NCBI RefSeq assembly: GCF_019393635.1
Contig: NC_057861.1
Span: 633,140,827-633,204,826, forward strand
Reading direction: 5' to 3'
DNA length: 64,000 bases
DNA from: Dromiciops gliroides
Taxonomy: Eukaryota
Positions 350-9,693 of this stretch are shown here, piece by piece. The notes beneath the pieces were generated by a model. It did no database searches, had not been told where the DNA came from, and was given only the letters and a program-made list of their open reading frames with translations. The position numbers were made by a program, and so were the translations under genes. How positions within the stretch are numbered: position 1 is the first letter of the stretch; every line of letters starts with the position of its first letter.

Positions 350-548
350 CTTTGCAGGCTGGTTCAGTGTCATTCCAGTGGGGATCAGAGGGGTCAACAC
401 ACTCAATGCACTAGGGGGACCAGGGGGTTCCAGGCATATCCTGGGAGGCAGGAGAATGTAGCCAGTGCTCCAGGACGGAACTGGGGATCCGTGGAAGTGA
501 CATTGCCATGAGCCAGAAATGGAGCAAAGCATCGATCCTCCTCAAATG
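350..548 (-). CDS. SEZ6L2: SEZ6L2 exon 8 (Sushi-2 region: [39 protein letters not shown] / [28 protein letters not shown]), contains a 1-nt frameshift
   Basis: Acceptor tttattctccAG at 550-549 and perfect donor GTGAGT at 349-344. The conserved peptide sits in two frames (ORF-track entries 403..672- and 323..532-), switching at GCC|TGGAA (430-440). Confidence 0.6.
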
Positions 549-2004
549 CTGGAGAATAAACAGCAGTCAGGGGCCCAGCCAAAACCCTCCATGCTCTCCT
601 TTCCCTTTCCCATCCCCCACCCTTCTGCATCTTCTTCACCCCCTCTTCATCTCCTCCAGGCAGAAACTTCATCCTGGGAGACTACAAAATTGGTCAGGGG
701 ACCTTTGACACATACTAGTAGTTTGACCATGAACACAGTCACTTAATCTCTCAGTGTCCCCAAACAACTCTCTAAGACTACAGCCAACTTGTCCATCCTC
801 ATCAATATAAGGACTTTCCATGCTAGAAATTCCCTATACCAGTGAAATCACTGCTGTGGACCAAAACAACACCCAACAATAACCTCTTGATTATTCCTGC
901 TGATGGAAGTTCATGAATTATCGATAATCTAAAACAAATAATCCAAGAGTTATTCATAGTCATATTTGAAAGACAGCACACGATTCCCACCACCCCTCTC
1001 CCCTCTCTCCATTTAGACTCCCACCATGGGAGGACTAAGGGCTTTCAGATGTCAACTTATTTACCAACCCTCATTTTACAGATAAGAAAACTGATGCTTA
1101 GAAAGGTGAGATAACTCAGTTAATTAATGGTGCTTTGCCTTTATAATAGGGCTTTACATTCTTGGTTTAACTCAGATTAGTTTCCCTTCCCTAAACCTAT
1201 ACCTACTCCTGAGTGGAGACATGGACCTGCACAATGCTTCTTTCTCTGTTCCATATCTGCACCCATTTTCAGACCTTCACTGATTTTACTGTGGGCAGTA
1301 CATTACTTTGTAAGGCCAGACGAGAGCATGGTGGAAGGCTTCTCATTTGCAGGAGAAAGAAGGCAAAAGATGTTTGTAAGGTAGGGGAAATAGGCTGGGG
1401 AGGGGCTGTGGGATTTGGGGACTGTAAAAAGTTCCAGTTAGACAGATTCCCTGATGCCCTTGTCAATTTTCCATTAGCATGGCCCCTTCATTCATTCTCC
1501 ACTATCCCCACCACAAATGCCTGACTAGTCCAGACTGAGGAAAGAGAACAGGAGTTTGGTATGGTGAGAGTAATGGGAATGCAGAGGATTTAGGACCACA
1601 TAAGAAGGGGAAAGTGGATTTATGGGTTTAGGCAACTTTTGTTTGGGTGCTCATGAAAGTTAAAGAGTGCCTTCTAAATAAATAAGAGAGCCTTCTGAAT
1701 TAGTCCTGGGTTAGAGGTATTATTGGAGTCTATGAGGTTTGGGATATTAGAGTCTGAGAAATTCTATGGGGTGTGGGAAGCTCAAGGAGGGTAGAATTGG
1801 AGGGCTCCTCTAGAAGGTGGGGTGTAGGGTTGACCTTTTGAGATCCACAGGGTTTTCAGGTTTCAGGCTCCTTACAGTTAGTCCCTAATCATGCAATGAA
1901 TGACAAAACAGAAATGGAGTTTGAGTCTAAAAAGGATGGCCATCTCTTGAAGGAGTAGGAGTATGGTATGCTTCAGCTTGGGGTTTCCCTTGGGGGCTTG
2001 TTAC

Positions 2005-2169
2005 CCTCATATCGCAGGCTTAGTAGCAAGGGGTTTGGCTGGTGTCTCAGAAAGCAGTTCCACATAGAGGGATTGGGCATCGCTGATCAGTCCTCTCTCT
2101 GGGACATCATCCATGTCTGAGTCGTAGATCAGTGGGGAGAGGGGACCACCCCCAGATCGGACCACCAGT
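2005..2169 (-). CDS. SEZ6L2: SEZ6L2 exon 7 (CUB-2 C-terminal half: [44 protein letters not shown] / PLLLSLRYE), contains a 1-nt frameshift
   Basis: Acceptor ccccAG at 2171-2170 and donor G|GTAACA at 2004-1999. The conserved frame shifts at GCCAAACCCCTTG (2028-2040). Exon length 165 does not fit the phases of the flanking exons. Confidence 0.6.
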
Positions 2170-2538
2170 CTGGGGATGGGAGCAGGTGATCAGTGCCACC
2201 AGGCAAGAGAAGAAGCTTCTTAGCCTCCAGAGCCTCATCCCTGTTGGTCACTTCATTTTCTCCCTTTAATTCATCACTGGGGTGAGAACCTCTTCCCCTA
2301 TATTCCTCTTTCCCATTGCAACCCTCCCTCCTTGGAACAAGACCCTTCTCCCCCACAGCCCTCCCCACCTCCAGGGTGAGAGCCTTCTCCTCCTGTCTCT
2401 CCTTCCACCTGTGGGGTATGAATTTTCTCCCCAAGAACCCTCCTTCCCCCATGTAGAGTGAGACCTCCTTTTAGTCAGTGAGAACTTTCTCTCCTTTCTA
2501 CTGTGAGATAAGAGCTTTCTCTTCCACAGTCTCCTCAC

Positions 2539-2707
2539 CTATCATTGTCCTCATCCAGTGAGACCCTTTCAAAGTGCAGGTGAAGTCTCCGTCCTTCAGC
2601 TGCCTCAATGACCCATCGGCAGGTAAGGTTGGGCCCTACAGCCCCTCCAGGTTCAGGGGAGACAATCCGACCAAGGGTAGCATTGTGGATGGAGCCTCCA
2701 CAGGCAG
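2539..2707 (-). CDS. SEZ6L2: SEZ6L2 exon 6 (CUB-2 N-terminal half: [56 protein letters not shown])
   Basis: ORF 2535..2780-. Acceptor cccttcAG at 2709-2708 and donor AG|GTGAGG at 2538-2533. Phases match exons 5 and 7. Confidence 0.75.
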
Positions 2708-2997
2708 CTGAAGGGAAGTAGGAATTAGAGAAGCACCTGAGCCAGAAACCCTTTTCTTCTTTTTTCTTGTTCCTCCCCAAACCCTCAAGGTGGCTTCTTT
2801 TCTTTAGGTAAGAGACTCCTCACTCCATCATATTCCTCAAAGCCCTATCTCTCTGGGCTTCTCACCTAGTCTCCCTTCCACTTGAATGTTTTTGCCCAGG
2901 TAGCAATGCTCTGGGGCATAAGAATCTTCTCTCATCCATCTCCCCTTCCTTCTCCCTAAGGCAGGGAAAGCCTTCTCCCTGCTGTCCTGGTGCTCAC

Positions 2998-7161: not shown

Positions 7162-7392
7162 CTGAGACGTGTTGTTACATAAAACTAAGGAAAAACACAG
7201 GGTCACAGACTCCCCAGGACAATTCAGGCATCCTCATTTTCCCGTCCCCATATTCATCCCTCCTAATCAATCTTATGCATCTATCCTTAAATGTCATACA
7301 TTCTCATCTCTCTCAGAACCTTGTTCCCATCTCTATATACATCACCACTCACCATTTGTACCCAGCATCCTCCTCTCCCATCAGTATATTAC

Positions 7393-7689
7393 CTGGGCTT
7401 GTCACAGTGTGACTGTGGTTGTGGTGATGAGGGTAGTTTGTGGTCTCTTCCTCTCCTCCCTCAGACCCAAGAGGCGGGCCTGGAGAGGCAGGACCTGGTG
7501 GGGGTGGGGCTGTTGTTCCAGGAGGTGGGGTCAGTAACTCAGGTGGCCATAGGCCCAGCCCCCCTTGCTCCTTGGGAGTCACAGCTGTTGTTAGGGGTCC
7601 TGTCTCCTGTTCTGTGACCCAAGGTGGGGAGGGCGGGGCGAGGGTCTGGTCTTCTGTATCAGCAGCTAGTGTGGGGACCAGAAGGGATC
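7393..7689 (-). CDS. SEZ6L2: SEZ6L2 exon 2 (Pro/Thr-rich N-terminal region ...[69 protein letters not shown])
   Basis: ORF 7349..7582- extends upstream with no stop. Acceptor ctttccttctctcctccctgatgtctcAG at 7691-7690 and donor G|GTAATA at 7392-7387. The reading phase matches the poly-Leu frame of exon 1. Confidence 0.65.
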
Positions 7690-8744
7690 CTGAGACATCA
7701 GGGAGGAGAGAAGGAAAGTCTAAAGTAAGGAATCTGAGGCAAGTAGCCTTGGGGACAGAAAGGGTTGTTCTAGGTGATAGGCTGGAGAATTAAAGGAGTT
7801 GGGGCCTCCATCCTTACCCAGGTCAGCCCTCCTGCACTGAGCCCAGGTTCTCCCAAAGGATTCCCCCCAGAAAGATTCAGGTCAAGGCTCAGGCTGACTA
7901 GGATAAGGACATGGCCTCAGAGAACTCCTACTTCTTAGCCTCTCCCTCCACAATAGACCCTGGGATAAAGCCTAGAATGTACTCACACTTCAAATTCTTA
8001 CATTCTGCGGCCCAGCAACATTATTCCCTTAAGCCCTCCACCCCATGAGCTTCTAAACATTTGTATCTATTGACTTCCTTTCTATTATTTTTCTTTTTGT
8101 CTTCCTCCCTATCTCTGACTTTCTTTGCCCCTATGTTTTCACACTGCCCTGGCCTTTCTGAGTCTTACCAGGGATCTCCCCATCTCTGGCCCTCTCCTTA
8201 GCAGGGCTCCATGTAGCCAAGCTCAGCCAGCGCAGCTGGTGGAATTGTGGGGAGACTCACTGCTTTCCCCAGCCAGGGTCTCTCCTCCTTTAGGGGTACA
8301 CCTAGGAGGGAAATGTCCCATGAGTCCCTGAGTGGGTTTGATTACCCCCTCTTTGTGCTTTTCCTATATCATTCCGTCTAATTACTCTCACAACCCTCTC
8401 AATTCTCACTCAATCTCTGCTAGCTCAAGCCCTAACCACAATCACTGTTTCTGGTACTTTTCATCCTCTGGATTAGGGAGCGGAACTTCAGTAGTGAATT
8501 CCTGCCATTCTGTTTCCTCAGCTAGTTATATATAGGGAAAGGAAACGAATGCCCTCCATGTTCTGACAGAACATGGACAGCTCCTGGATGGTAGGTACGG
8601 TATTGATTCATCCTCACGTCTCTGGCTCTGCTAGGATCAAGCTCTCTCTCTCTCTCTCTCCTATGTTGGTGTTCTGTCAGTATCTCTGGCTGCTATCTCT
8701 GTTAGCCCATCTTTCTGAGTATCTGTCTCTGTGGTGCCTGCTGT

Positions 8745-8818
8745 TTTCCTCTCTCTCTCTCTCTCCTCTTCTCTCTCTCTCCTCTCTCTCTCTCCTCTCT
8801 CTCTCCTCTCTCTCTCTC
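8745..8818. repeat. (CT)n/(CTCTC)n microsatellite in SEZ6L2 intron 1 (a second block at 8642-8662)
   Basis: Direct reading. Confidence 0.9.
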
Positions 8819-9615
8819 ATCTATAAGTTCTCTATTGGGTTCTGCCTCTCTTTAGTACCTACCAACTCTCTCCAGATCTCTCTGTAGCTTCTGCTTCATC
8901 TCTATTTCTGTAGTGTCTTGATGCTCTAATTCTATGTAGCATCCACAACCTCTTTTTGGGTTTCTATCTCTATGTAGTGCCTACTATCTTCTCTACATAT
9001 ATACTGCTTACTGGTTCTCTCTGGGTCTGTTTTTCTAGATCTCTGGGCCTCTCTCTTTATGTAGTCAGAAGCCATATGGATCCATGTGCCTGTGTGTAGG
9101 ACTGTGTGGGGAAGCTGTTTGCTATGGATCTGTCCTTGCTTAGATGTCCATCTGTCTTTAGCCATATGTGAAAGATCATGTGTGTATAGATCTTATGTAT
9201 ACATCCCTTTTCTCTCCTCTTTAAGTATCTCACCAGGCCTCTCTACCTCAGATCCTTGTCTTTCAGTACGGTAGGAACACCTCCCCCCACTTCTATTTCC
9301 CTGGATTTAACCCCTACCCCATCCTCGTGTCCTTTGATTCTTCCTCTCATCCAATAGCCCCAGGGACTGATTTGGGGAACTCTGAGTGCCAGTGTAAAAC
9401 CCTAGATCCCCATCCCTCTCCCCTTTCCCTACTGCAGCGCCCCTCCCCCTTCCTCTACCAAGAAAGCCGAAGGCCAGACGTGCAGAGAATGGGGCTGTAG
9501 GGGGAGGGCCGCATCCCCAAGGCTTCTCTGTATAGCATACACTGAGTGCCCTGCCCCCTTCACATTTAGGGGTACAATTCCCTCATCTCTTTCATGCAAT
9601 CCCATATTTTCTTAC

Positions 9616-9693
9616 CGAAAGTCCAGGGCAGCTGAACCAGCAGCAGCAGCAGCAGCAGCGGTGGGAGCAGGAGCCCGGCTCCAGATTCCCCAT
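9616..9693 (-). CDS. SEZ6L2: SEZ6L2 exon 1 (ATG + poly-Leu signal peptide), with ATG and signal peptide in different frames
   Basis: Minus-strand ATG at 9693-9691 (MG...). The (CTG)7 run encodes [18 protein letters not shown] and the donor GTAAG is at 9615-9611. No in-frame ATG lies within 200 nt upstream of the poly-Leu frame. Confidence 0.5.

What the first reader, a model, noticed from the sequence alone, without database searches (positions are those of the whole stretch)
350..9693. SEZ6L2 alone carries at least five frame-disrupting indels at homopolymer runs while four neighbouring genes are intact
In exons 1, 5, 7 and 8 the conserved SEZ6-family peptide blocks lie in different reading frames within a single exon. 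No choice of splice sites rescues this, because exon lengths become incompatible with the phases demanded by the flanking exons. Every switch point sits at a short homopolymer or C/G-rich run (GGGG after the ATG; a C11 run and GGAGGG in exon 5; AAACCCC in exon 7; GCC|TGG in exon 8). By contrast, about 7 kb of coding sequence in ASPHD1, KCTD13, TMEM219 and TAOK2 reads through cleanly with correct phases at every junction. That includes the 1.75-kb, >65% GC terminal exon of TAOK2. The unaffected SEZ6L2 blocks are under obvious purifying selection, with long, near-invariant CUB/Sushi segments. Two explanations compete: (i) homopolymer indel errors confined to this part of the assembly, or (ii) a recent, lineage-specific inactivation of SEZ6L2. 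The second would be notable for a conserved neuronal CUB/Sushi gene in the 16p11.2 interval.
Basis: partly seen in the sequence, partly recalled or inferred. Interest (0 to 1): 0.65.

Follow-up and report, generated by a model that had tools for sequence, protein, structure and literature searches.

The report
Assembly error patch mimicking SEZ6L2 loss
The broken reading frame of the brain gene SEZ6L2 in this monito del monte (Dromiciops gliroides) sequence is almost certainly a roughly 12-kb stretch of poor-quality genome assembly full of one-base errors, not a real gene loss.

Summary
The window is from Dromiciops gliroides: its ASPHD1, KCTD13 and TMEM219 proteins match that species' RefSeq proteins exactly. 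It holds SEZ6L2 exons 1-9 on the minus strand. In five other marsupials these exons are invariably 73/132/297/140/202/186/169/164/201 nt (Trichosurus checked for exons 1-7). Here they are 78/133/297/139/202/189/169/165/199, with at least 18 small indels in 1,564 nt, not five.

The indels are not specific to the gene. Measured at sites with conserved flanks, window-private 1-bp indels occur at 0.89% in SEZ6L2 coding sequence, 0.95% in its introns and 1.46% in the 2 kb upstream. The rate is 0.06% from 11,751 to 20,000. From 38.5 to 64 kb (different alignment and filter) private indels are fewer and show a natural length spectrum.

Substitutions are not in excess. With the indels removed, the gene has 19 private synonymous changes, 7 nonsynonymous and no stop codon, like its functional orthologues. 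All splice sites are intact. About 7.4 kb of coding sequence in the four neighbouring genes is clean.

This matches a known failure of long-read assemblies: a locus left unpolished, which produces false frameshifts. Verdict: artefact, low interest.

The parts
1..11750 (.). Low-accuracy sequence block with roughly 1 small indel per 100 testable bases. The left end runs off the window. The right end lies between 11,726 and about 12,350. Density is uneven: 29 events in 7,001-11,750, 11 events in 1-7,000, and none in 5,001-7,000.
   Evidence: Six-species alignment. Window-private 1-bp indels per bin were 5, 4, 4, 9, 10 and then 1, 1, 0. The events are listed.
9616..9693 (-). SEZ6L2 exon 1 (ATG at 9693). 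It is 78 nt against 73 in five aligned orthologues. It has a 1-bp loss after ATGGGGA, +7 in or next to the CTG repeat, and a 1-bp loss in a C run.
8169..8301 (-). It is 133 nt against 132. It carries four indels: -1, +1, +2 and -1.
7393..7689 (-). SEZ6L2 exon 3, 297 nt against 297. It contains two compensating -1/+1 pairs. These put KGARGAGPTA and [10 protein letters not shown] out of frame.
7046..7184 (-). SEZ6L2 exon 4, 139 nt against 140. One base is lost in AACAAC(A)AC.
5987..6188 (-). SEZ6L2 exon 5, 202 nt against 202, no indel.
2998..3186 (-). Two single-base losses sit at the exon start. The C run is C11 against C7 (3155-3165). There is one extra G in GGAGGGC (3110).
2539..2707 (-). SEZ6L2 exon 7, 169 nt against 169, no indel.
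2005..2169 (-). There is one extra A in GCC(A)AACCCC at 2036.
350..548 (-). Single-base losses lie at 434 and 408.
9694..11726 (.). Non-coding 5' flank of SEZ6L2 (the SEZ6L2-ASPHD1 intergenic region). It carries 10 window-private 1-bp indels and 2 of 2 bp, all in sequence conserved in five other marsupials.
12208..13406 (+). ASPHD1, used as a control. It has 3 exons (736/114/110 nt) and 319 aa, is intact, and is identical to XP_043828231.1 of Dromiciops gliroides.
14590..18940 (-). KCTD13, used as a control. It has 6 exons (277/170/90/53/196/237 nt) and 340 aa, is intact, and is identical to XP_043828226.1.
41743..45003 (+). TMEM219, used as a control. It has 4 exons (165/196/245/138 nt) and 247 aa, is intact, and is identical to XP_043830995.1 of Dromiciops gliroides.
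50656..61885 (+). TAOK2, used as a control. The long isoform has 15 exons and 1,244 aa and ends at 58,882. The short isoform has 18 exons and 1,046 aa and ends at 61,885. The only differences from the orthologues are in-frame (+9 and -12 nt).

Best explanation
Window positions 1 to about 11,750 are a stretch of poor consensus sequence in the Dromiciops gliroides chromosome assembly (mDroGli1.pri, a Vertebrate Genomes Project assembly). The assembler's consensus of noisy long reads mis-counted short runs of the same base. The short-read polishing that normally repairs such errors did not act here. Possible reasons are that reads were recruited to the alternate haplotig, that local coverage was low, or that a gap was filled from a few long reads. 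This sub-mechanism is inferred, not shown.

The result is about one spurious 1-bp insertion or deletion per 100 bases. These errors fall on exons, introns and intergenic DNA alike. Because the block covers the 5' half of SEZ6L2, that gene appears shattered by frameshifts. The neighbouring genes lie outside the block and read cleanly. The animal's real SEZ6L2 gene is most probably intact and under purifying selection.
For: 1. Location, not function, predicts the indels. Per site with conserved 8+8 flanks, window-private 1-bp indels occur at 0.89% in SEZ6L2 coding sequence, 0.95% in SEZ6L2 introns and 1.46% in the upstream non-coding 9,694-11,750. The rate is 0.06% in 11,751-20,000 (pooled Fisher p = 1.8e-8). 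Five other marsupials show 0-4 such events per 2.2-2.8-kb bin, with no trend.
2. In 38.5-64 kb the window-private indels have a natural length spectrum: 9 of 23 are 1 bp and the rest are 2-18 bp. In the 1-11,750 block 32 of 40 are 1 bp.
3. The error signature fits. Of the 32 one-base events, 27 are homopolymer run-length changes (p = 2.7e-6), 23 are at G/C, and there are 21 deletions to 11 insertions.
4. Substitutions are not in excess. SEZ6L2 coding sequence has 29 private substitutions against 19-45 in the five orthologues, but 15 strict indels against 0.
5. Selection is intact. After the indels are removed there are 19 private synonymous codons, 7 nonsynonymous and 0 stop. The orthologues have 17-44 synonymous and 3-11 nonsynonymous. 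All splice dinucleotides of exons 1-9 are conserved.
6. Five other marsupials have identical lengths for exons 1-9, and Trichosurus matches koala without gaps across exons 1-7.
7. 7.4 kb of neighbouring coding sequence is clean, including exons of 61-69% GC.
8. The window is from Dromiciops gliroides (exact protein matches), whose reference is the VGP assembly mDroGli1.pri (PMC13429303; PMC11305139). The VGP methods paper states that the commonest errors of CLR-based assemblies are short indels causing frameshifts. It also shows a locus left unpolished in a primary assembly, giving frameshift errors in TLK1 (PMC8081667).
Against: No read-level data or second Dromiciops assembly could be reached, so the errors are inferred from comparison, not seen directly.

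An error rate near 1% is worse than the Q30-35 quoted for unpolished CLR consensus. Something more than missing short-read polishing, such as very low long-read depth, must be assumed.

The density is uneven inside the block: there are no events in 5,001-7,000.

I did not confirm from a primary source which read types were used for mDroGli1.

The 20-38.5 kb stretch of the window was not tested.
Confidence: 0.95

Rival explanations
1. SEZ6L2 was genuinely inactivated in the Dromiciops lineage (a unitary pseudogene), and the indels are real germline mutations that accumulated after loss of constraint.
For: Spliced as they stand, the exons give a stop at codon 30 and 12 stops in all. There are at least 18 indels in the coding sequence. 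No Dromiciops SEZ6L2 protein appeared among the homologues retrieved.
Against: The introns and the upstream DNA carry the same indel excess, which loss of gene function cannot cause.

In functional-gene introns of the other species the ratio of indels to substitutions is 1:24 to 1:80. At that ratio, 15 indels would imply more than 360 extra substitutions in 1,553 columns. Only 29 are seen.

The nonsynonymous to synonymous count is 7:19, with no nonsense codon. All splice sites are kept. Thirty-two of 40 events are 1 bp, unlike the natural spectrum seen elsewhere in the same window.
Confidence: 0.02
2. The block is real DNA but not the functional locus. It could be a diverged duplicate (an unprocessed pseudogene copy) or a degenerate haplotype that was placed in the primary assembly instead of the true SEZ6L2 5' half.
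For: The anomaly is a sharply bounded contiguous block. Haplotype mix-ups are known in such assemblies (PMC8081667).
Against: A decaying duplicate would show excess substitutions and relaxed selection in its exons, and neither is seen.

Synteny and intron structure are exactly those of the orthologous locus in five species.

No duplicated junction sequence is found at the right boundary.
Confidence: 0.02
3. The frame switches are an artefact of the reader's exon model. Wrong splice sites or a missed exon would explain them, and the sequence is fine.
Against: Exon boundaries were projected from exact protein-to-genome maps of five orthologues, and all splice sites are conserved. Even so, the window's exon lengths differ by +5, +1, -1, +3, +1 and -2 nt, and conserved peptides lie in different frames within single exons.
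Confidence: 0.01

Closest known systems
Locus left unpolished in a long-read (PacBio CLR) primary assembly, giving false frameshifts. The published example is TLK1 in the Anna's hummingbird VGP assembly (Rhie et al. 2021, PMC8081667, Extended Data Fig. 11a).
   Same: Both are a local, contiguous patch of short indel errors in an otherwise accurate chromosome-scale assembly. In both, frameshifts appear in one conserved gene while the neighbours are clean. The present window comes from the same project and pipeline family.
   Different: Here the cause (read recruitment to the alternate haplotig, low depth, or gap filling) was not established. The apparent error rate of about 1% is higher than the Q30-35 reported for unpolished consensus.
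False gene losses caused by assembly and sequence errors in vertebrate genomes (Kim et al. 2022, PMC9516821).
   Same: A conserved gene looks lost or broken because of the assembly, and this would mislead comparative screens.
   Different: That paper stresses missing GC-rich sequence in short-read assemblies. Here the sequence is present but mis-called, and GC content does not explain it, because neighbouring exons of 61-69% GC are clean.
Unitary pseudogene (lineage-specific loss of a conserved gene).
   Same: There are multiple frameshifts and premature stops in a gene that keeps its syntenic position and intron structure.
   Different: There is no relaxed selection, no nonsense substitution and no splice-site loss. 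The indel excess extends to the introns and the flank, and the indel spectrum is almost purely 1 bp.

Membership tests
Local consensus-error patch of a long-read assembly | The indel excess occupies a contiguous block and does not depend on coding or non-coding status. | tested here: met
   The rate is 0.89% in coding sequence, 0.95% in introns and 1.46% upstream, against 0.06% outside the block.
Local consensus-error patch of a long-read assembly | The errors are mostly 1-bp homopolymer length changes. | tested here: met
   32 of 40 events are 1 bp. 27 of the 32 are run-length changes, p = 2.7e-6.
Local consensus-error patch of a long-read assembly | There is no matching excess of substitutions, and the underlying gene still looks selected. 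| tested here: met
   There are 29 private coding substitutions against 19-45 in the orthologues. The counts are 19 synonymous, 7 nonsynonymous and 0 stop.
Local consensus-error patch of a long-read assembly | Accurate reads from the same individual disagree with the assembly at the indel sites. | not testable with these tools
   No Dromiciops reads or second assembly could be reached. Look-ups for that genome failed.
Local consensus-error patch of a long-read assembly | The assembly was built from noisy long reads with later polishing. | tested here: inconclusive
   The species was identified by exact protein matches. Papers name mDroGli1.pri as a VGP assembly and cite Rhie et al. 2021. The read types used for this particular assembly were not verified.
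Unitary pseudogene | Inactivating mutations are present in the coding sequence. | tested here: met
   On face value there are at least 18 indels and a first stop at codon 30.
Unitary pseudogene | Selection is relaxed on the lineage: a nonsynonymous to synonymous ratio near neutral, nonsense substitutions, and decay of splice sites. | tested here: not met
   The nonsynonymous to synonymous count is 7:19, there are no stops, and all splice dinucleotides are intact.
Unitary pseudogene | The number of indels is proportionate to neutral substitution divergence, and the indel length spectrum is natural. | tested here: not met
   The ratio of indels to substitutions is 15:29 in the coding sequence. 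It is 1:24 to 1:80 in the introns of the other species. The spectrum is 80% 1 bp, against 39% elsewhere in the window.
Unitary pseudogene | The mutation excess is confined to the formerly constrained sequence. | tested here: not met
   The introns show the same excess (Fisher p = 1.7e-5 against the rest).
SEZ6L2 orthologue (SEZ6 family, CUB/Sushi) | The sequence is orthologous, with conserved synteny and CUB plus Sushi domains. | tested here: met
   A composite query (repaired window N-terminal half joined to a eutherian C-terminal half) is 93-94% identical to marsupial SEZ6L2. The KCTD13-ASPHD1-SEZ6L2 order is as in five species. The frame-corrected translation hits CUB (2.4e-12) and Sushi (4.9e-19).

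The most novel reading that the evidence does not exclude
The indels are real, and Dromiciops gliroides has lost a functional SEZ6L2. SEZ6L2 is a conserved neuronal CUB/Sushi gene of the 16p11.2-syntenic interval. This reading would also need an unusual, locally indel-prone mutational process acting on its introns and promoter.
Probability: 0.02. Interest if true: 0.55.

Novelty: not a real feature. Interest (0 to 1): 0.08.

Why it matters
Biologically it does not matter: SEZ6L2 is most likely intact in the monito del monte.

Practically it is a useful warning. A stretch of about 12 kb of the Dromiciops reference chromosome carries roughly one indel error per 100 bases. That is enough to make a conserved brain gene look like a pseudogene. 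It could produce a false 'gene loss' in comparative screens. It could also create spurious 'accelerated' conserved non-coding elements in the SEZ6L2-ASPHD1 promoter region.

The test used here separates assembly error from true pseudogenes without reads and can be reused. It compares private 1-bp indels per conserved-flank site in exons, introns and flanks, and sets them against private substitutions.

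Tried and rejected
1. The first homologue search used a 309-aa query and returned only fragments of up to 496 aa, because the tool filters hits by length. 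A 916-aa composite query then gave full-length marsupial SEZ6L2.
2. Look-up of the 907-aa wombat isoform failed because only the longest product of each gene is indexed. The 920-930-aa isoforms worked.
3. Exhaustive enumeration of splice models timed out twice. A version that required splice sites conserved in all species gave wrong KCTD13 models. I replaced these with peptide-anchored junction searches and conserved-ORF filtering.
4. I tried to fetch the Dromiciops record itself, to see how SEZ6L2 is annotated there and to find any independent Dromiciops sequence. This failed.
5. I rejected GC content as the cause. KCTD13 exon 1 (69% GC), the TAOK2 last exon (64%) and ASPHD1 exon 1 (61%) are clean.
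6. I looked for a duplicated junction at the right boundary of the block and found none.
7. I considered that Trichosurus might share the defect, because its SEZ6L2 was absent from the hit list. It has a 920-aa gene call, and exons 1-7 align to koala without gaps.
8. A literature search for SEZ6L2 loss in marsupials or in Dromiciops found nothing.

Full report
WHAT IS THERE. Three-frame translation of the minus strand of 1-10,000 shows SEZ6-family peptide blocks. tblastn with orthologues obtained through the tools shows these blocks changing frame inside single exons. A 916-aa composite query retrieved full-length SEZ6L2 proteins of 907 aa from nine marsupials. I fetched orthologous genomic loci for Petaurus, koala, Monodelphis, Macrotis and Antechinus, and later Trichosurus.

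Exact protein-to-genome maps show that exons 1-9 are 73/132/297/140/202/186/169/164/201 nt in all five species. In Trichosurus, exons 1-7 align to koala without gaps. In the window the same exons are bounded by fully conserved splice sites but measure 78/133/297/139/202/189/169/165/199 nt. They contain at least 18 indel events. Some of these are compensating pairs, for example in exon 3, where KGARGAGPTA and [10 protein letters not shown] lie out of frame. Spliced as they stand, the exons give a stop at codon 30 and 12 stops in all.

THE NEIGHBOURS. I rebuilt gene models from the orthologues and projected them through the alignments.
- KCTD13 has exons of 277/170/90/53/196/237 nt and 340 aa.
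- ASPHD1 has exons of 736/114/110 nt and 319 aa.
- TMEM219 has exons of 165/196/245/138 nt and 247 aa.
- TAOK2 has 15 exons and 1,244 aa in the long form and 18 exons and 1,046 aa in the short form.

All are intact. In ASPHD1, KCTD13 and TAOK2, exon lengths equal those of the other marsupials except for two in-frame differences in TAOK2. TMEM219 is 247 aa as in Trichosurus and Petaurus (koala has 244). This amounts to 7.4 kb of clean coding sequence. It includes exons of 61-69% GC, so GC content is not the cause.

WHOSE GENOME. The window's ASPHD1, KCTD13 and TMEM219 proteins are exact matches to RefSeq proteins. The ASPHD1 and TMEM219 entries are named Dromiciops gliroides, and all three lie on the same contig of 764,011,478 bp. 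A distance tree places the window next to the diprotodont clade (koala, Petaurus) and apart from Macrotis, Antechinus and Monodelphis. The reference for this species is mDroGli1.pri (GCF_019393635.1), a Vertebrate Genomes Project assembly (PMC13429303; PMC11305139).

THE DECISIVE TEST. A pseudogene relaxes selection on exons, but it cannot change the mutation rate of its own introns or raise indels without raising substitutions.

I aligned the window (1-20,000) with five species. I counted indels private to one species whose 8-base flanks on both sides are conserved. The window has 5, 4, 4, 9 and 10 private 1-bp indels in successive bins from 1 to 12,500, and then 1, 1 and 0 up to 20,000. Every other species has 0-4 per bin, with no trend. 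The events lie in exons, in introns and in the non-coding 9.7-11.7 kb flank. The last of the dense series is at 11,726, which is 482 bp before the ASPHD1 start codon.

Normalised per testable site, the rates are:
- 0.89% in SEZ6L2 coding sequence;
- 0.95% in SEZ6L2 introns;
- 1.46% in the upstream flank;
- 0.06% in 11,751-20,000.

The pooled comparison gives Fisher p = 1.8e-8. For 38.5-64 kb I used a second alignment, with Trichosurus, koala and Petaurus. It shows few private 1-bp indels and a natural length spectrum: 9 of 23 are 1 bp and the others are 2-18 bp. In the block, 32 of 40 are 1 bp. Of the 32 one-base events, 27 are homopolymer run-length changes (p = 2.7e-6), 23 involve G or C, and there are 21 deletions to 11 insertions.

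SELECTION. Private substitutions in SEZ6L2 coding columns number 29 in the window and 19-45 in the five functional orthologues. Strict private indels number 15 against 0. In the introns of the other species, the ratio of indels to substitutions under the same filter is 1:24 to 1:80. At that ratio, 15 neutral indels would imply hundreds of substitutions. With the indels removed, the 521 codons carry 19 private synonymous changes, 7 nonsynonymous and no stop. The orthologues carry 17-44 synonymous and 3-11 nonsynonymous. Several of the seven nonsynonymous changes sit next to indel sites. The frame-corrected translation has CUB and Sushi domains. The gene therefore looks constrained on its own branch.

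MECHANISM. The pattern matches a documented failure mode. [quoted passage not shown] A locus of a primary assembly that was left unpolished, because the alternate haplotig attracted the polishing reads, showed frameshift errors in TLK1 (PMC8081667). False gene losses from assembly errors are also reviewed in PMC9516821.

What is shown here is a bounded low-accuracy block. What is inferred is the reason for it: polishing failure, low depth or gap filling. Two caveats apply. The error rate of about 1% is worse than typical unpolished consensus. The density is also uneven inside the block, with none in 5,001-7,000 and the most in 7,001-11,750. No duplicated junction marks the right edge.

RIVALS. 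True inactivation is contradicted by the intronic excess, the ratio of indels to substitutions, the 1-bp spectrum, the intact splice sites and the 7:19 nonsynonymous to synonymous count. A misplaced decaying duplicate is contradicted by the normal substitution level and the exact synteny. A mistaken exon model is excluded by the orthologue-projected exons. No paper links SEZ6L2 loss to marsupials or to Dromiciops.

LIMITS. No reads and no second Dromiciops assembly could be reached. The 20-38.5 kb stretch was not tested, and the left edge of the block lies outside the window.

VERDICT. This is an assembly artefact. Interest is low. The practical value is as a flag on the reference and as a read-free test for telling such artefacts from true pseudogenes.

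Noticed in passing
It carries four indels of its own.
   Followed up: yes
window 9640-9665 (minus strand, exon 1): The CTG (leucine) repeat of the signal peptide is two units longer than in the five other marsupials, with one stray base besides. Whether the in-frame +6 is a real length polymorphism or part of the error patch cannot be told.
   Followed up: partly
window 59,000-64,000: There are seven window-private 1-bp indels in 4,410 aligned columns of TAOK2 3' non-coding sequence (59255, 59412, 59478, 62685, 62936, 62991 and others). This is more than in 38.5-55 kb but far below the main block. Trichosurus also has several private indels at 62.6-62.9 kb, so this may simply be weakly constrained sequence.
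   Followed up: partly
window 54,639-54,899 and 57,131-58,882: TAOK2 differs from three other marsupials by an in-frame +9 nt in the poly-Glu exon and an in-frame -12 nt (loss of PSSS) in the last exon. The exact 1,244-aa protein built here is not in the protein collection, although the three other genes' proteins are. The RefSeq model of this gene may therefore differ.
   Followed up: no
window 18,957 (KCTD13 5' UTR): A window-private 4-bp deletion sits in GC-rich sequence 17 nt upstream of the KCTD13 start codon. It lies outside the error block, has no effect on the ORF, and is probably a real difference.
   Followed up: no
window 8,640-8,830; 9,870-9,890; 10,400-10,420; about 48,000-48,080; about 62,200-62,330: These are simple-sequence tracts: (CT)n in SEZ6L2 intron 1, and (GT)n/(CA)n near the promoters and in the TAOK2 3' region. 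Marsupial SINE copies lie in SEZ6L2 introns, for example at about 3,360-3,510, 4,740-4,990 and 5,520-5,680.
   Followed up: no
window 1-20,000 and 38,500-64,000 against L001-L008: In neighbour-joining trees from these alignments the window (Dromiciops) joins next to the diprotodont clade (koala, Petaurus). It does not join Macrotis, Antechinus or Monodelphis. This is only about 27 kb of one locus, so it says little about the debated position of Microbiotheria.
   Followed up: no
tool behaviour: the search for homologous proteins seems to return only proteins within about 0.55-1.6 times the query length. A partial-gene query therefore misses full-length orthologues.
   Followed up: yes
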